Below are positions 1 through 32,555 of a DNA stretch of 64,000 bases, one piece after another (the stretch's first letter is position 1; every line of letters starts with the position of its first letter). The stretch comes from a virus. Taxonomy: Duplodnaviria; Heunggongvirae; Uroviricota; Caudoviricetes; Herelleviridae. The notes beneath the pieces were generated by a model. It did not search any database and had not been told where the DNA came from. It was given only the letters and a program-made list of their open reading frames with translations. The stretch lies in IMG/VR virus record IMGVR_UViG_2706796071_000001; one strand, written 5' to 3'. The position numbers and the translations under genes are program-made.

Positions 1-4
1 GGAT

Positions 5-496
5 TTGATTATAATGACAAACACAATAAAAGGATTTTTACAAACAGAAGAAGCAAGCACAGTTAAGGACGTAGCAACTCACGGAGTGCAAAGCGGAGCA
101 ATTGGCAGATTAATTTACACATCAGACGTAGTAAACTTTTTTGACCGATACGAGCAGGATATTACAGACGTTATCACTAACTACTTAGAAGGTGTTACAG
201 GCGCTCAGTATTATGACTTGTTAGACTATGAACTAATGAGTGACCTCGAGAACTATGCAAATGTAAACTTTCAACATGAAGATACTTATAGAGAAATTGA
301 ATTCGAACTAGCAGAGGGTATTGCTTCTCGATATGCAGGTTTTGACGAAGAAGATGAAGACATACAACAAGACTTAATTTTTGAAGCATTAGACTATGTT
401 GAAATGGATATTCAAGACATTGACAAAGTGCAGTTTGTTAACTTAGCAGTTGAGATTGTAGCACAGGAATTAGCAGGAGAAAGAGGAGACATCTAA
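5..496 (+). CDS. acidic hypothetical protein. TTG start right at the window edge, so it may be N-terminally truncated.
   Basis: 163-aa ORF, strongly acidic (D/E-rich). No recognisable motifs. Confidence 0.45.
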   Translation: MIIMTNTIKGFLQTEEASTVKDVATHGVQSGAIGRLIYTSDVVNFFDRYEQDITDVITNYLEGVTGAQYYDLLDYELMSDLENYANVNFQHEDTYREIEFELAEGIASRYAGFDEEDEDIQQDLIFEALDYVEMDIQDIDKVQFVNLAVEIVAQELAGERGDI

Positions 497-738
497 GACC
501 CTGCAGAAAGCACATAGAGACACACAGAGAAGCTTAACCGCTTCTCTAATACAATTAATCAGGAGATGTTGAACATGAACACAAGAAGGGTAAACAAAGC
601 GTTAAACGAAGCAGTTAGATTATTAGACAAGCAAATAGCAGACACACAGAAAACAATGCAGGAGTTAAATAACCAACAGATAAGAGCTAAGCAGGAGCTA
701 ATGACATTAGTTGATACTATGACTGGTGATGATGAGTA

Positions 739-1008
739 ATGAACATTAGAGAGGTTCATAATGTCGTTAAGAGTGCAAAGAGCCAACTCCTGCAGGAGCA
801 GAATAATATTAATAATGTAATAATAGATGACTACATCACAGAGGAGCTTCACAGACGCACACAGAGAAGCGGGACAATACAGATGAACAATAACACCGCT
901 TCATATAGTAATGGCTCATATGGTAGCTTAGAAGAGCTTAGAGAAGCTTATGACCTATCTTCATTATCTACTGGTGAGATTAAAGAGCTGATAAAAACAT
1001 TTGTTTAA
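739..1008 (+). CDS. hypothetical protein
   Basis: 89-aa ORF on the same strand as its neighbours. No motifs. Confidence 0.3.
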   Translation: MNIREVHNVVKSAKSQLLQEQNNINNVIIDDYITEELHRRTQRSGTIQMNNNTASYSNGSYGSLEELREAYDLSSLSTGEIKELIKTFV

Positions 1009-1083
1009 ATTCTTTTATCAAAACGCTTTACAATCTTTTAGTTTGTATGATATAATGAACTTAACAAATTAAAAGAAAAGGAA

Positions 1084-1314
1084 ATGATGAACATGATGGA
1101 TATTCAAGAAAGAAAAGAAGAATTGAAAGTATTATTATTTAACTTAGCAATAGAGAAGAACAAAGCAACTGATGAGACACTAAGAAGTGTATTAGAAGAA
1201 GCTCATCAAGAGGTAGCAAATCAATTAAGAAAAGTAAGAAAAGAAATTGAAATTTTAGTCGAAGAAAAAGAAAGAGAATTTTGGAACGATTTAGAATTTA
1301 ATGGTTTAGACTAA
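1084..1314 (+). CDS. hypothetical coiled-coil protein
   Basis: 76-aa ORF with an RBS-like 'aaaaggaaatg' upstream. An intrinsic terminator follows immediately. Confidence 0.45.
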   Translation: MMNMMDIQERKEELKVLLFNLAIEKNKATDETLRSVLEEAHQEVANQLRKVRKEIEILVEEKEREFWNDLEFNGLD

Positions 1315-1345
1315 GAGGGAATAAAATCCCTCTTTTATTTTTATC
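1314..1345 (+). terminator. rho-independent terminator
   Basis: Hairpin agaggga-ataaaa-tccctct followed by a T-rich run. Confidence 0.6.
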
Positions 1346-1469
1346 CTATTATATAATTTTTTTATATTATACGGGGGCAGGGGTAAAATGCCACTCAATG
1401 GGGTGGGTCTATATACCCCTATGGTCTACCCAGGTACTTATTTTTTGGGGAAAATTATGAAAATAAATA

Positions 1470-1600
1470 TTTAAAAGTCAACACCTAAAATATAGAACGT
1501 AAGTCAACACCCTATATTAAAAGTCAACATTATAACCCCTCCCTGTAAGTCAATAATTTATAGTACAAATAGACAACCTCTAAATATAAAGTCAACATAT
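1470..1600. repeat. five direct iteron-like repeats, (A/G)AAGTCAACA(C/T), spaced about 22-42 bp apart
   Basis: Copies read aaagtcaacacc, gtaagtcaacacc, aaagtcaacatt, gtaagtcaataat and aaagtcaacata. They lie between two convergent terminators, and a G-tract-rich segment (1370-1440) sits upstream. Confidence 0.6.
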
Positions 1601-1605
1601 CTAAA

Positions 1606-1638
1606 ATAAAAAAAAAAGAGAGGGAGTTAACTCCCCTC
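1606..1638 (-). terminator. rho-independent terminator for the leftward gene 1642-1932
   Basis: Plus-strand A12 followed by hairpin gagagggagtt/aactcccctc. On the minus strand this reads as a hairpin followed by a U-run. Confidence 0.6.
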
Positions 1639-1641
1639 CAA

Positions 1642-1932
1642 CTAGTTCAATACTCTTCTGTTATTTAACTCCTGCTCAACTGTATTCAAGTGTTCCCAAA
1701 CCTCAATCCAATTTACTCTTGAGTCATCATAATAAAGGTGAAAATCTTGAGGATTTTCTAAATAACAATCTAACTCGTCATAGTATAAAACATCAAAAGG
1801 TATAGTATCTAAACCTAGTTGTATCTTTAGTATATCTTTATATCCTAATTGTTTATTTCCACAGTAAGCTGTATGTTCTAATCTCTCTTCTAATTTATTA
1901 AATAATGTTTGTACGCCTTGTAATTCATTCAT
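1642..1932 (-). CDS. hypothetical protein
   Basis: 96-aa ORF. The RBS aggaggtaatac lies upstream on the minus strand. Confidence 0.5.
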   Translation of the reverse strand: MNELQGVQTLFNKLEERLEHTAYCGNKQLGYKDILKIQLGLDTIPFDVLYYDELDCYLENPQDFHLYYDDSRVNWIEVWEHLNTVEQELNNRRVLN

Positions 1933-7939: not shown

Positions 7940-8500
7940 TCCGACAGAGCTCCCGTACTTAGATTACGGTTAATAATATTTTACGACAATTATATGAGAC
8001 CCTCTGTCGTTGAAACTCTTGTCACTGCGTTATTCCACAAGATATTTTAGAAGGTAGCTTGTGGAAGAAGATTGTTTTTAAAGGTACAATTAGCGTTTTT
8101 AAGCCTATTCGATACCCAGGACACTATGTCCGTACTAACTATTACGTCAATAAAGGTTCTACGGTCTCAATTACCTACTCTTTATTGTTAAAACTAAAAT
8201 TAAGCTTGAGTGCTCTAGAAGCCAAAATCAATTAATTAACTATAGATACGGAATGGAGGGGCACTACCATCCGGAGTCTACGGTCAGATACAAAGCCTCT
8301 GCCGGGCAACATACGGTATCTCTCGTACATCAGGTTGACTAGACCTTTAGAGTTTTTCACTCCTTCTCTTATAACCAGTAACTTAAGAGAAATAGGTTTT
8401 ACTTAGTAGATATGAAACAATAAATCCACATACAATATTAAATCATAGTCAAGTGATTGCACATATGTCTAACACCTATAAGTTTTTTGCTAGCCTGGTA
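7940..8500 (-). ncRNA. candidate structured noncoding RNA of about 500 nt, co-transcribed with the tRNAs
   Basis: No ORF of 60 codons or more. GC is clearly higher than in the flanks. There are many local inverted repeats (acgaca/tgtcgt, ttccacaag/cttgtggaa, ggaca/tgtcc) and a repeated 'tctacggtc'. It is bounded by an upstream promoter and a downstream terminator on the minus strand. Confidence 0.35.
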
Positions 8501-8502
8501 TA

Positions 8503-8574
8503 TGGACTCTGCAGGATTCGAACCTACAGTCAAACCGTTATGAGCGGTTGGCTTTACCTTTAAGCTAAGAGTCC
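8503..8574 (-). tRNA. tRNA-Met (anticodon CAT)
   Basis: Folds by eye. Acceptor stem GGACTCT/AGAGTCC, T-arm GGTTCGAATCC, anticodon loop CTCATAA. Confidence 0.8.
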
Positions 8575-8581
8575 TAGAAAT

Positions 8582-8647
8582 ATCCTGAGAGAGGACTCGA
8601 ACCTCAACGACTAGGTAGCTACATCTAGCCAATGCCATTACTCAGGA
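8582..8647 (-). tRNA. tRNA-like element. The cloverleaf is non-canonical; it may be tRNA-Trp or a degenerate tRNA.
   Basis: Acceptor-like stem TCCTGAG/CTCAGGA and T-arm GAGGTTCGAGTCCTC are present. It is only 66 nt, and I could not fold a canonical D or anticodon arm. Confidence 0.35.
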
Positions 8648-8828
8648 TTGCTAGTAACGCTAAATAGAATTATAACGTTACCGTAGACCTTTTCTACGCT
8701 TGGTAGATAGGTAAAATATAATGATTTCAAAATACCCATATAGTCAGGCTCCTACTCTCATTATAAGGTTAAAAAGGCTAACTGTGTTTAGCATTATATA
8801 AGAGGCTTTAGTTAACTACTATACTAAT

Positions 8829-30658: not shown

Positions 30659-30895
30659 TTGTATCTCTCCTTTTAAATATGTAAAGTATATAGCTAGTAT
30701 CGTATCCTAGGAACAAACACTTGCGCTATATACTCAATGAAACTCTACCCTCATTCGAGGACACAGCAAACCGGTTCGTCAACCGAACATATGAATTCTC
30801 AAGTTCCATTTATGTAACACACCCTCTTTGATTTGCACAAAGACTAAGGGTTTTGGAGACCCTTGTACTACTAATTATACTAAGGGTGTTTATTA

Positions 30896-30968
30896 TGGTT
30901 TCTATTGGATTTGAACCAATGACACCTAGAGCTTCAATCTAGTGCTCTACCATCTGAGCTAAGAAACC
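30896..30968 (-). tRNA. tRNA-Phe (anticodon GAA)
   Basis: Acceptor GGTTTCT/AGAAACC. Anticodon stem-loop CTAGA-TTGAAGC-TCTAG. T-arm GGTTCAAATCC. Confidence 0.85.
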
Positions 30969-30974
30969 TTGTAA

Positions 30975-31048
30975 CGACTCATACGAGACTCGAACTCGTA
31001 CTCTCTGCCGTGACAGGGCAGTGTGTTAACCAGTTACACCAATGAGCC
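30975..31048 (-). tRNA. tRNA-Asp (anticodon GTC)
   Basis: Acceptor GGCTCAT/ATGAGTC with one G-U pair. Anticodon stem-loop CTGCC-CTGTCAC-GGCAG. T-arm GAGTTCGAGTCTC. Confidence 0.8.
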
Positions 31049-31975
31049 AAAATAAATGCTATACCCTAACCTTACCTTAATGTATAGCAGGTTTTCATAT
31101 AAGCTCGAAGCAACGATTATTACCACTCATAACAACTATATATTAAGTGAAAGGAGGTGAAATGAACAAAACGTGGTAATTGGTACTTATATAGGAAATA
31201 TGTATAATCTACAAGGAGTAAGTTATTGGTTCATAAAGGAGTGTGAACAATAAATACATGAAAGAGTGAAAGAGTGAAAGTCTACTCCTTGTAGATTCTT
31301 TTTTAATTATCAATCAAAGGAGGAAACTGATAATTGTTAATAATAAACTATAAAGAGGAAAATATTTATAGTCACATTCTGATATAATGCAACTAAATAT
31401 CCAAGCATAACCCGTCTCACGAGGAACCTACCTATAAGACCTGTTATTAAGTGAATCACTACGATTGACTCTATTAAGGAGCTACCTTAAGTCCATCTCA
31501 CGCAATTTAAAAGGGACTTACAAACCGCATAACGGTAGTAAGTTTATTAAATAATGTGATATTAACATATTAGTTAATAACTTTCACATGGTCGAAGAAA
31601 AGTAAATTTATTTGATTACCAAATTATTTTTATCAAATATAGCTCTTTTGAACCTGTAGATTTATGCTACTCATACTGATAACCTCTATTATCTAACACA
31701 TTTCTGTGCTCCAACTACAGTTAGTCGTTACAGCGTATCTTTCTAGGATTCCGCTAAGACCCTAGAAAGAAATTAAACCCTAGCCGTTATCATACTCTAC
31801 AGACCTTATAAGTAAGTACCAAGTATACCAATCGTATTTAACAATACTAATGACGACTCACCCTACCGATATATCTCCGATAGGTTTTGATTCGTTTGAT
31901 TATCTTGTACCTTATGACTACCAAATCATTATTCAGTCACTATGCTCAGATATTTAGTTGTATTATTATATATTA

Positions 31976-32210: not shown

Positions 32211-32429
32211 TTAGTTATCTTTTGTTAATTCTTCCTGAATAGCATCCCATCTTCTTTCTGCTTCACTACGATTATCTTCTATATGTTTTGTAGTTTTACA
32301 ACATTTGATACAGTATATATCTTTGATATGACCTTCTTCTCTTTTATTTGCTCTTTTTCTTGGTACTTTGAATACATTACCACATTCTTTACATATTAAA
32401 CTTGAGTAAAACATTTTTTGTCTTTTCAT
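32211..32429 (-). CDS. small Zn-ribbon protein
   Basis: 72 aa. CKECGN ... CIKCCK arrangement (CxxC...CxxC). RBS agaaaaggaattgattaattATG. Confidence 0.5.
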   Translation of the reverse strand: MKRQKMFYSSLICKECGNVFKVPRKRANKREEGHIKDIYCIKCCKTTKHIEDNRSEAERRWDAIQEELTKDN

Positions 32430-32468: not shown

Positions 32469-32497
32469 ACTATATACTATATTGATAAATAAGTCAA
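32469..32497 (-). promoter_or_regulatory. sigma-A promoter for gene 32211-32429
   Basis: rc reads TTGACTtatttatcaatatagtaTATAGT. Confidence 0.5.
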
Positions 32498-32555
32498 CAG
32501 TTTTCTAAAAATAATTTAAATTATTTTGAAGAATCCTTTAATACCAAAGGTTACA

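What the first reader, a model, noticed from the sequence alone, without database searches (positions are those of the whole stretch)
1340..1610. Iteron cluster (AAGTCAACA, five copies) and G-tract segment trapped between convergent terminators
Five direct repeats of (A)AAGTCAACA(C/T), spaced about 22-42 bp apart, lie in a non-coding gap bounded by a plus-strand terminator (1314-1345) and a minus-strand terminator (1606-1638). This suggests a non-transcribed, protein-binding locus. Just upstream sits a G-tract run, GGGGGCAGGGG...GGGGTGGG. Phased iterons in a transcriptionally insulated gap are typical of replication origins, packaging or terminal-repeat boundary signals, or partition-like sites. 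The gap lies at the junction between a rightward gene block and the long leftward early block, which is where such signals might be expected in a phage with long terminal repeats. The rc of the repeat (TGTTGACTT) also resembles a -35 box, so a cluster of weak promoters is an alternative.
Basis: partly seen in the sequence, partly recalled or inferred. Interest (0 to 1): 0.55.

Follow-up and report, generated by a model that had tools for sequence, protein, structure and literature searches.

The report
Kayvirus terminal-repeat boundary with flanking repeats
The gap holds the already published right-hand border of the long terminal repeat of a Staphylococcus phage (phiIPLA-RODI), and the five short repeats and the G-rich stretch sit at a near-constant distance around that border in three phage genera, so they are probably part of the signal that makes the genome ends.

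Summary
The window is Staphylococcus Kayvirus phiIPLA-RODI. The gap 1315-1641 contains CCCAGGTACTTA (1429-1440), the published 12-bp inverted repeat that marks the long terminal repeat (LTR) border in Twort-like phages. Seven related records end their LTR at the position equal to window 1430|1431. The G-tract is therefore the last ~60 bp of the LTR. The AAGTCAACA repeats lie in unique DNA 44-166 bp beyond it.

The repeats are not new. GenBank AY842850.1 (phage 812) annotates the same 9-mers as 'possible recombination site'. Phage K RNA-seq reports a minus-strand RNA (snc004) across this gap, so it is not transcriptionally silent.

New here:
- The gap is a conserved island between mosaic genes.
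- Repeat cores vary far less than their spacers.
- The distance from an invariant AT block plus CGGGGG to the first repeat is 103-104 bp (107 in Fi200W) in Kayvirus, Silviavirus and Twort, across largely dissimilar intervening sequence.
- One inverted copy lies by the other LTR border in four phages.
- Repeat 1 doubles as the -35 of a conserved leftward promoter.

Best reading: a cis-acting module that generates the LTR terminus. This is inferred, not shown. Origin, partition and G-quadruplex readings are poorly supported.

The parts
1084..1314 (+). treU-like last gene of the long terminal repeat (LTR); early gene in phage K
   Evidence: ORF. The homologous gene is annotated TreU in LM12, Stab20 and Fi200W. 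79% of its alignment columns vary between Kayviruses, showing mosaic replacement.
1313..1344 (+). Intrinsic terminator of the rightward LTR genes (stem 1313-1334 plus T tail)
   Evidence: Annotated as a terminator in LM12, K and 812. The phage K supplement lists it for both strands.
1335..1371 (.). Invariant AT-rich block TTATTTTTATCCTATTATATAATTTTTTTATATTATAC, partly palindromic
   Evidence: 0 of 37 columns vary among 10 Kayvirus records. TATATTATAC is also kept in Silviavirus. Twort has an AT block in the same place.
1371..1376 (+). CGGGGG, the only part of the G-tract present in all lineages examined; reference point for the spacing
   Evidence: Present in RODI, K, 184DA, V1SC04, MCE-2014, SAP6 and Twort. 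The distance from it to repeat 1 is 103-104 bp in all seven.
1372..1430 (+).
   Evidence: Over the 65 nt after the C (1372-1436) GC is 0.55 in RODI and 0.42-0.57 across lineages, in a ~30% GC genome, with 4-6 runs of three or more G or C in every lineage. The background is 0.37 runs, and 0.07% of windows have four or more. Much of the sequence itself is replaced between lineages.
1429..1440 (+). CCCAGGTACTTA, the published 12-bp inverted repeat at the LTR/unique border; inferred LTR end at 1430|1431
   Evidence: Only match in the window. Seven records end the LTR at ...GGTCTACC|CAGGTACTTA. Literature. The partner TAAGAACCTGGG lies at record position 132818, outside the window.
1454..1481 (-). 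Sigma-70-type promoter TTGACT-16-CATAAT whose -35 is repeat 1; it fires leftward across the LTR end, with a predicted start near 1447
   Evidence: 10 of 12 matches. A -10 box 15-16 bp from repeat 1 recurs in 184DA (TATAAT), SAP6 and Remus (TATAAT) and Twort (TATAAA) although the spacer sequences align poorly; it is weak in MCE-2014. Consistent with minus-strand snc004 in phage K.
1475..1483 (+). Repeat 1, AAGTCAACA, at a near-constant distance from CGGGGG and from the LTR end
1501..1509 (+). Repeat 2, AAGTCAACA
   Evidence: Annotated 'possible recombination site' in AY842850.1.
1521..1529 (+). Repeat 3, AAGTCAACA
   Evidence: It forms the deletion junction with repeat 4 in K, 812 and 184DA.
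1547..1555 (+). Repeat 4, variant AAGTCAATA
   Evidence: It reads AAGTCAACA in V1SC04, Stab20 and K.
1589..1597 (+). Repeat 5, AAGTCAACA
   Evidence: Invariant together with its flank AATATAAAGTCAACATA in the 10 aligned Kayvirus records.
1614..1639 (-). Intrinsic terminator of the leftward (middle) gene block
   Evidence: The homologous terminator is annotated in 812 and Sb1M.
1642..1932 (-). First gene of the unique region (leftward); replaced by bofL in K and G1-type phages

Best explanation
The segment 1335-1600 is the cis-acting right-hand border module of the long terminal repeat (LTR) of a Kayvirus.

Shown:
- The LTR ends at 1430|1431, inside the published border motif CCCAGGTACTTA.
- The G-rich stretch is the last ~60 bp of the LTR, and so the right physical end of packaged DNA.
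- The AAGTCAACA repeats lie in unique DNA 44-166 bp beyond the end.

Inferred:
- The invariant AT block plus CGGGGG on the inside and repeat 1 on the outside are recognition elements. They are held at a near-constant distance (103-104 bp from each other, about 58 and 44 bp from the cut).
- They position the enzyme complex, most likely terminase with a small subunit or accessory DNA-binding protein, that cuts concatemers at this border and allows the LTR to be duplicated.
- Mirror-image cut positions in the two 12-bp inverted repeats (TAAGTACCTG|GG and CC|CAGGTACTTA) fit nicks on opposite strands followed by strand-displacement copying of the LTR.
- Repeats 2-5 are extra binding boxes. Their number drifts (2-5) through recombination between copies.
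- Repeat 1 also serves as the -35 of a conserved promoter that transcribes leftward across the cut. This could produce snc004 and may assist processing, as RNA polymerase does at the T7 concatemer junction.
For: Identity. The window is phiIPLA-RODI.

Border.
- CCCAGGTACTTA lies at 1429-1440.
- Seven records with LTRs set by PhageTerm, coverage, the depositors' virion-DNA annotation or sequence similarity all end at the homologous ...CTACC|CAGG.
- A Silviavirus record that holds both LTRs ends one base from the same offset.
- The 12-bp inverted repeat is a published hallmark of these phages.

Selection on the non-coding gap.
- AT block: 0 of 37 columns vary.
- Repeat cores: 2 of 45 vary, against 25 of 78 for the spacers between repeats.
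- Flanking genes: 60-79% of columns vary.

Spacing.
- CGGGGG to repeat 1 is 103-104 bp in seven lineages of three genera.
- The intervening sequence aligns poorly in the same register: 18-57% identity beyond the first ~25 nt, which stay 81-95% identical except in MCE-2014.

Mirror copy. TGTTGACTAAT lies 27-55 bp from the other border motif, on the unique side, in Fi200W, Sa87, K and Stab20. This 8-mer has 0 plus-strand copies in the whole RODI genome.

Uniqueness. There is no other cluster of the motif in 142 kb.

Promoter.. Minus-strand RNA snc004 was reported in phage K.
Against: - No experiment links the repeats to packaging.
- The ends of RODI itself were not mapped; they are inferred by homology.
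- The repeats lie on the side of the right-end cut that is not packaged with that end. This differs from lambda cosB.
- Copy number ranges from 2 to 5 in viable phages, so most copies are dispensable.
- RODI and Silviavirus lack the mirror copy at the other border, and where it exists its distance varies.
- Fi200W has 107 bp rather than 103-104.
- The repeat is identical to the phage's own -35 context. An exact copy at 32491 is the -35 of an ordinary gene promoter. RNA polymerase alone could therefore be the binding partner.
- V1SC04 lacks the canonical 12-bp motif yet keeps everything else.
Confidence: 0.5

Rival explanations
1. Promoter and small-RNA locus only. Repeat 1 is the -35 of a leftward promoter that makes a ~130-nt RNA (snc004) or an antisense RNA against the early tre genes. 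The other copies are by-products of slippage with no role in DNA processing.
For: - TTGACT-16-CATAAT lies at 1481..1454.
- A -10 box recurs 15-16 bp from repeat 1 in four of five spacer versions that align poorly.
- snc004 is on the minus strand across the homologous gap in phage K.
- TGTTGACTT is a genuine -35 at 32491, upstream of ORF 32211-32429.
- TTGACTT is common in K early promoters.
Against: - Repeats 2-5 have no usable -10 in any lineage, yet their cores vary at 2 of 45 columns against 32% for the spacers. Decaying by-products should not be conserved like this.
- The K study assigned no promoter to snc004, and its coordinates are simply the gene borders, so it may be read-through from gp022.
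- The RNA has no Rfam match, and the transcribed segment is largely replaced between lineages with no shared fold.
- This model does not explain the fixed distance to CGGGGG or the mirror copy at the other border.
Confidence: 0.22
2. Iteron-type replication origin. An initiator binds the repeats and melts the adjacent AT-rich DNA.
For: There are direct repeats next to AT-rich DNA (20-21% GC at 1315-1361 and 1441-1474). The region is conserved and non-coding. The phage encodes a protein annotated Rep, a helicase and a primase.
Against: - Only a 9-11 bp core is conserved. Spacing is irregular (20-42 bp) and copy number varies from 2 to 5.
- There are no DnaA boxes.
- The gene annotated Rep lies at 83 kb, far from the gap.
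- The gap is at the convergent junction near the cumulative GC-skew maximum; the minimum is at 33.6 kb.
- An origin does not explain the exact coincidence with the LTR end or the mirror copy at the other border.
Confidence: 0.08
3. DNA-entry pause signal. Like the injection stop region at the inner end of the T5 first-step-transfer DNA, the repeats just beyond the left LTR would halt genome entry until the LTR-encoded takeover proteins are made.
For: The position is right: immediately beyond the LTR, which carries the earliest genes. Rightward early transcription stops at the terminator at 1313-1344, and the next block is transcribed in the opposite direction. The T5 comparison rests on my own knowledge.
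Against: I found no report of two-step DNA transfer in Kayvirus or SPO1-like phages. There is no sequence relation to T5. The model does not explain the mirror copy at the other border or the fixed spacing to an element inside the LTR.
Confidence: 0.05
4. Recombination hot spot only. The 9-mers matter only as micro-homologies for deletions and duplications, as the phage 812 GenBank annotation suggests. The G-tract matters only as a hairpin or G-quadruplex.
For: - AY842850.1 labels the 9-mers 'possible recombination site' and the G-rich part 'stem_loop'.
- Deletion variants (K, 812, 184DA, Stab20) have repeat-to-repeat junctions.
Against: - Micro-homologies with no other role would not stay invariant across three genera while their spacers change.
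- The DNA hairpin is no more stable than shuffled sequence (z = -0.31) and is absent in Silviavirus, MCE-2014 and Twort.
- Four G-tracts are not conserved: 184DA and MCE-2014 have C-runs instead.
Confidence: 0.07

Closest known systems
12-bp inverted repeats TAAGTACCTGGG / CCCAGGTACTTA at the LTR borders of Twort-like (Kayvirus) phages. Attributed to Lobocka et al. 2012, as cited in PMC7596081, PMC6022877 and PMC4111496.
   Same: The exact motif lies at 1429-1440. The partner, with one mismatch, lies at the other border of the RODI record. The LTR end in annotated relatives falls inside the motif.
   Different: The published description, as far as I could read it, covers only the 12-mers. The AT/CGGGGG block, the G/C-run-rich terminal 60 bp, the AAGTCAACA repeats and their fixed spacing are not part of it. 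I could not read the original chapter.
GenBank AY842850.1 (phage 812, 2,029 bp): four 9-bp 'possible recombination site' features and several stem_loop features. It is probably tied to Kasparek et al. 2007, Folia Microbiol; that paper is not held, and the link is my inference.
   Same: The annotated 9-mers are exactly TGTTGACTT, the reverse complement of AAGTCAACA, at the homologous positions. One stem_loop is the G-tract segment.
   Different: The record interprets them as recombination sites. It gives no link to the LTR end, spacing or promoter, and no functional test.
snc004, a small non-coding RNA of phage K (Finstrlova et al. 2022, PMC9241854)
   Same: It covers the same intergenic gap (K 8370-8665) on the minus strand, which is the strand on which repeat 1 forms a promoter.
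   Different: Its coordinates equal the gene borders, no promoter was assigned, and the function is unknown. It may be read-through.
Bacteriophage T7 concatemer junction
   Same: The terminal repeat is bordered on its unique sides by arrays of short direct repeats. A promoter reads across the junction, and RNA polymerase pausing there helps to start maturation and packaging (PMC3276506). The repeat arrays and the nick or hairpin models for duplicating the repeat are from my own knowledge.
   Different: There is no sequence relation. The T7 repeat is 160 bp against about 8-11 kb here. T7 uses its own RNA polymerase, whereas the promoter here is of the host sigma-A type.
Lambda cos (cosN nick site, cosB R sites and an IHF site) and the P1 pac site (hexamer repeats flanking the cut); from my own knowledge
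   Same: A cut site with short repeated protein-binding boxes at set distances and an AT-rich, bendable element. The phage encodes a protein annotated 'integration host factor'.
   Different: Here the repeats lie on the unpackaged side of the right-end cut. The ends are blunt-defined long direct repeats, not cohesive ends or headful cuts. No binding data exist.
Iteron-type origins (plasmids, lambda ori); from my own knowledge
   Same: Direct repeats lie next to AT-rich DNA.
   Different: The core is short, the spacing irregular and the copy number variable. There is no initiator gene nearby and there are no DnaA boxes.

Membership tests
Twort-like / Kayvirus LTR border | CCCAGGTACTTA at the junction of the LTR and unique DNA | tested here: met
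   Exact match at 1429-1440, the only one in the window. Homologous positions are annotated as the LTR end in 7 records.
Twort-like / Kayvirus LTR border | Inverted partner TAAGTACCTGGG at the other end of the non-redundant genome | tested here: met
   TAAGAACCTGGG (one mismatch) lies at record position 132818 of KP027446.1, followed by the conserved LTR start GGAAAACTTTTACC. It is outside the window.
Twort-like / Kayvirus LTR border | Physical genome ends or two-fold read coverage of the repeat in this phage | not testable with these tools
   No reads for phiIPLA-RODI were available. Ends were mapped by PhageTerm or coverage in fGlntSau01, Maine and Sa87.
Terminase recognition site (cos/pac-like) | Defined cleavage position | tested here: met
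   The same cut context, CTACC|C, appears in Kayvirus records. A Silviavirus record ends within one base of it.
Terminase recognition site (cos/pac-like) | Conserved flanking elements at fixed distance from the cut | tested here: met
   CGGGGG lies 58-60 bp inside the cut and repeat 1 lies 43-44 bp outside. The total is 103-104 bp in 7 lineages of 3 genera, and 107 bp in Fi200W.
Terminase recognition site (cos/pac-like) | Binding by the small terminase and a requirement for packaging | not testable with these tools
   This needs gel-shift or footprint assays and a genetic test.
Iteron-type replication origin | Several repeats of about 17-22 bp at regular spacing of about two helical turns | tested here: not met
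   Only 9-11 bp are conserved. Spacing is 26, 20, 26 and 42 bp, and copy number is 2-5.
Iteron-type replication origin | Adjacent initiator gene or DnaA boxes | tested here: not met
   No DnaA box with one mismatch or fewer occurs in the gap. The gene annotated Rep lies at 83.4-85.1 kb.
Iteron-type replication origin | Origin activity | not testable with these tools
   The only indirect cue is that the cumulative GC-skew minimum is at 33.6 kb, not here.
Sigma-70-type promoter cluster | A -35 and a -10 hexamer with a 16-18 bp spacer at each repeat | tested here: not met
   Only repeat 1 passes (10 of 12 matches). Repeats 2-5 reach at most 4 of 6 in the -10 at any spacer of 15-19 bp.
Known RNA family | Match to an Rfam covariance model | tested here: not met
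   No match up to E = 1 on either strand of 1250-1700. There is no tRNA in the gap.
G-quadruplex or hairpin element | Four G-tracts or a stable stem conserved across relatives | tested here: not met
   The hairpin z-score is -0.31, and no common fold appears across lineages. 184DA and MCE-2014 have two G-runs plus C-runs. Only G/C-run richness is conserved.

The most novel reading that the evidence does not exclude
The invariant AT block plus CGGGGG, the cut site and the AAGTCAACA boxes together form a bipartite terminus-generation signal with a set length. It would be shared by staphylococcal Twortvirinae (Kayvirus, Silviavirus, Twortvirus). It would be read by terminase together with host RNA polymerase firing from repeat 1 across the cut, which would make it a T7-like, transcription-assisted mechanism. 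As far as I could find, no packaging signal has yet been defined for a phage of the Herelleviridae with long terminal repeats.
Probability: 0.3. Interest if true: 0.6.

Novelty: new member of a known kind. Interest (0 to 1): 0.4.

Why it matters
Kayviruses such as K, Sb-1, ISP, Team1 and phiIPLA-RODI are the main therapeutic phages against Staphylococcus aureus. How they cut and duplicate their long terminal repeats is not known beyond a 12-bp landmark.

A defined cis signal of about 270 bp, with testable boxes and a spacing rule, would help in three ways:
- It would guide genome engineering and rebooting.
- It would help to predict or prevent packaging of foreign DNA.
- It would give a practical rule for setting genome ends in new Twortvirinae assemblies: find CGGGGG, with the LTR end about 58-60 bp after it and the first AAGTCAACA about 103-104 bp after it.

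Most of the locus, however, is already known. The LTR border is published, the repeats are annotated in GenBank, and an RNA has been reported here.

Tried and rejected
- IMG/VR pattern scans for CCCAGGTACTTATT and for two repeats within 10-35 bp gave mostly chance hits in unrelated contigs and were dropped.
- Rfam at gathering and E-value thresholds, and tRNA search, found nothing in the gap.
- Small-protein reading rejected. LM12 annotates a 33-codon ORF and 184DA and V1SC04 annotate minus-strand ORFs over the gap. A one-base G-run difference between RODI and K shifts the frame, and MCE-2014 has no ATG at the homologous position (reading).
- Hairpin rejected as a conserved feature.
- G-quadruplex rejected as a conserved feature.
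- DnaA boxes: none in the gap.
- Partition site: nothing annotated as a partition protein in the parts of the RODI record fetched (64-142 kb) and nothing else pointing that way. The window's own genes (1-64 kb) were not screened, so this is not settled.
- Helical phasing: cumulative offsets put copies on different faces, and the pattern differs between RODI and K.
- Literature search for the motif strings found nothing relevant.
- Kasparek et al. 2007 is not held. Lobocka et al. 2012 I did not try to fetch.
- An unbiased 8-mer cluster scan of the whole genome found no second candidate repeat array near the replication genes.

Full report
IDENTITY AND OBSERVATION

The window is positions 1-64000 of Staphylococcus phage phiIPLA-RODI (KP027446.1; Kayvirus, Herelleviridae), at 100% identity. 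The finding lies in the 327-bp gap between the rightward treU-like gene (1084-1314) and a leftward ORF (1642-1932).

- AAGTCAACA occurs at 1475, 1501, 1521 and 1589, with AAGTCAATA at 1547.
- G-tracts lie at 1372-1382 and 1401-1408.
- Convergent terminator-like hairpins lie at 1313-1334 (+) and 1639-1614 (-).

The 9-mer has 6 exact copies in the window against 0.94 expected, and 0 of 100 shuffles reached 6. I rebuilt the whole 142,348-bp genome from the record. It still has only 6 copies, 4 of them here, and no other place has more than two near-matches per 200 bp. An unbiased 8-mer scan ranks this among the few real clusters in the genome. Spacing is 26, 20, 26 and 42 bp and is not phased.

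CCCAGGTACTTA sits between the G-tract and the repeats, at 1429-1440. Three papers describe TAAGTACCTGGG / CCCAGGTACTTA as the 12-bp inverted repeats that separate the long terminal repeats (LTRs) from the non-redundant genome in Twort-like phages (PMC7596081, PMC6022877, PMC4111496).

Seven related records carry annotated LTRs: Stab20, K, Fi200W, 812, fGlntSau01 and Maine (both PhageTerm), and Sa87 (coverage). All end the LTR at ...GGTCTACC|CAGGTACTTA, which is window 1430|1431.

The partner motif in RODI, TAAGAACCTGGG, lies at record position 132818 and is followed by the conserved LTR start. The record's end and start join seamlessly when compared with phage LM12. By inference, the RODI LTR is 132828..142348 plus 1..1430, a total of 10,951 bp.

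So the rightward genes at the window start are the end of the LTR. The G-tract is the last ~60 bp of the LTR, which is the right physical end of virion DNA. The repeats are in unique DNA 44-166 bp beyond that end.

PRIOR KNOWLEDGE OF THE REPEATS AND OF TRANSCRIPTION

GenBank AY842850.1, a 2-kb fragment of phage 812, annotates exactly these 9-mers (TGTTGACTT on its strand) as 'possible recombination site'. It annotates the G-rich part as a stem_loop.

The phage K transcriptome paper lists a small RNA, snc004, on the minus strand at 8370-8665, which is exactly this gap (PMC9241854). No promoter was assigned to it. The treU terminator is listed for both strands, and the neighbouring leftward genes are classed 'middle'. 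The gap is therefore not silent, and the leftward block is not 'early'.

COMPARATIVE ANATOMY (NEW HERE)

1. Conserved island. In an alignment of 10 Kayvirus loci the flanking genes are mosaic, with 79% and 60% variable columns. By contrast:
   - The AT block 1335-1371 has 0 of 37 variable columns.
   - The repeat cores have 2 of 45.
   - The spacers between repeats have 25 of 78.

2. Copy number.
   - 5 copies: RODI, LM12, Fi200W, V1SC04.
   - 4 copies: K, 812, 184DA.
   - 3 copies: Stab20.
   - 2 copies: MCE-2014 type.
   - Silviavirus: one copy at the conserved position (with a degenerate ATGTCAATA nearby in SAP6) plus a duplicated second cluster of two copies further out.
   The deletions have repeat-to-repeat junctions. 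This fits the 'recombination site' label as a description of how copy number changes.

3. Spacing. The distance from the C of the invariant TATATTATAC-GGGGG to the first repeat is 103-104 bp in RODI, K, 184DA, V1SC04, MCE-2014, SAP6 and Twort. These belong to three genera. Beyond the first ~25 nt (which stay 81-95% identical except in MCE-2014) the intervening sequence is only 18-57% identical in the same register. One outlier, Fi200W, has 107 bp.

4. Terminus offset. The LTR end sits at the same offset in Kayvirus records. The Silviavirus SAP6 record, which holds both LTRs, ends within one base of it.

5. Composition of the LTR end.
   - The 65 nt after the C hold 4-6 runs of three or more G or C in every lineage, and GC is 0.42-0.57.
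   - The genome background is 0.37 runs per window, and 0.07% of windows have four or more.
   - The runs are G in some lineages and C in others.

6. Mirror copy.
   - One inverted copy, TGTTGACTAAT, lies on the unique side of the other LTR border, 27-55 bp from TAAGTACCTGGG, in Fi200W, Sa87, K and Stab20. The sequence flanking it differs between them.
   - This 8-mer has no plus-strand copy in the whole RODI genome.
   - RODI and SAP6 lack the mirror copy.
   - In K, 812 and Sa87, 35-bp tandem repeats that each contain CTAAGTACCT lie between it and the border.

PROMOTER ASPECT

The reverse complement TGTTGACTT matches the -35 context of this phage's own promoters.
- TTGACTT heads several early promoters in the K promoter table.
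- CTATTGACTT lies 18 nt upstream of TAATAT at three sites in the RODI LTR.
- The exact copy at 32491 sits 17 bp from TATAGT, upstream of ORF 32211-32429.

In the gap only repeat 1 has a -10 box (TTGACT-16-CATAAT, 1481..1454). A good -10 recurs 15-16 bp from repeat 1 in 184DA, Silviavirus and Twort, although the spacer sequences align poorly. It is weak in MCE-2014. The predicted start, near 1447, would send RNA leftward across the cut site. This fits snc004. Repeats 2-5 never have a -10, yet their cores are conserved.

MECHANISM

Shown: this is the LTR right border. The surrounding non-coding DNA is under selection, and there is a spacing constraint around the terminus.

Inferred:
- The AT/CGGGGG block and repeat 1 are recognition elements that position the terminus-generating complex. 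Repeats 2-5 add binding sites.
- The cut positions in the two inverted 12-mers mirror each other (TAAGTACCTG|GG and CC|CAGGTACTTA). This fits nicks on opposite strands whose 3' ends point into the LTR, so that strand-displacement synthesis duplicates the LTR. This is the classical model for T7 (own knowledge).
- Transcription from repeat 1 across the cut may help, as RNA polymerase pausing does at the T7 concatemer junction (PMC3276506).

I give the terminus-module reading about 0.5. The rivals are:
- a pure promoter or small-RNA reading, about 0.22;
- a replication origin, about 0.08;
- a recombination hot spot only, about 0.07;
- a T5-like DNA-entry pause, about 0.05.

WEAKNESSES

- There are no binding or genetic data.
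- The ends of RODI itself are not mapped.
- The repeats lie on the unpackaged side of the right-end cut.
- Copy number is variable, and the mirror copy is not universal.
- The hairpin through the G-tract is no better than shuffled sequence (z = -0.31) and is not shared across lineages.
- Four G-tracts are not conserved.
- There is no Rfam family and there are no DnaA boxes.
- The gap lies at the convergent side of the genome near the cumulative GC-skew maximum, which argues weakly against an origin.

VERDICT

This is a real and correctly located feature. Its core, the LTR border, is already published, and its repeats were already annotated. The new content is the conserved architecture and the spacing rule across three genera, together with the dual identity of repeat 1 as a promoter -35. 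The result is of moderate interest and is directly testable.

Noticed in passing
window 1-1430, with KP027446.1 132828-142348 (locus L003 from 2829): The deposited phiIPLA-RODI record is a permuted unit genome that starts 1,430 bp before the LTR end. The inferred LTR is 10,951 bp, so the packaged genome would be about 153.3 kb. No repeat_region feature appeared under the parts of the record I fetched.
   Followed up: partly
L260 740-832 (phage K), L263 238-470 (Sa87); cf. PMC6445280: 35-bp tandem repeats sit just before the R-LTR. Each unit contains CTAAGTACCT, a partial copy of the border motif. Copy number differs between phages. RODI instead has scattered CTTAGAA/CTAGAA-like words there.
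   Followed up: partly
L003 2880-3110 (RODI record about 132.9-133.1 kb), the first ~300 bp of the LTR: The non-coding start of the LTR carries about seven copies of TAATCT(A/T) and two copies of a 22-bp tandem unit (ATCTTATATAATGGTACATTAA). This is another candidate protein-binding array at the left genome end.
   Followed up: no
RODI record 135738-135787 and 136426-136452 (inside the LTR, outside the window): There are two further rare 8-mer clusters: TAGGATAG, with 5 of its 8 genomic copies, and TAAGTAGC, with 4 of 5. The end of the MCE-2014 record has four CTAAGTAGCTC repeats (L264 720-810).
   Followed up: no
L253 700-800 (phage vB_ScaM-V1SC04): This phage lacks the canonical CCCAGGTACTTA. 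It has CTACTTGGGGCTCCTA instead, which resembles the Twort border context CTAGTTGGGGTACTA. It keeps the AT block, the spacing and five repeats. It looks like a recombinant border variant.
   Followed up: partly
window 32491-32499 (minus strand), upstream of ORF 32211-32429: An exact TGTTGACTT here is the -35 of an ordinary promoter (TTGACT-17-TATAGT), near the divergent switch where the cumulative GC skew is lowest (33.6 kb).
   Followed up: partly
window 8503-8574 and 30818-31049: Four tRNA genes lie on the minus strand: Met, then Trp, Phe and Asp.
   Followed up: no
L127 1060-1100 and 884-925 / 1157-1200 (Silviavirus SAP6): In Silviavirus a ~40-bp block that contains repeat 1 and its -10 box is duplicated about 270 bp further out. 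The two copies flank a (TA)n tract.
   Followed up: no
window 1384-1470 and homologues: Three records annotate short ORFs across the LTR border: LM12 (33 codons) and 184DA and V1SC04 (minus strand). The frames are not conserved between close relatives, so these are probably false gene calls.
   Followed up: partly
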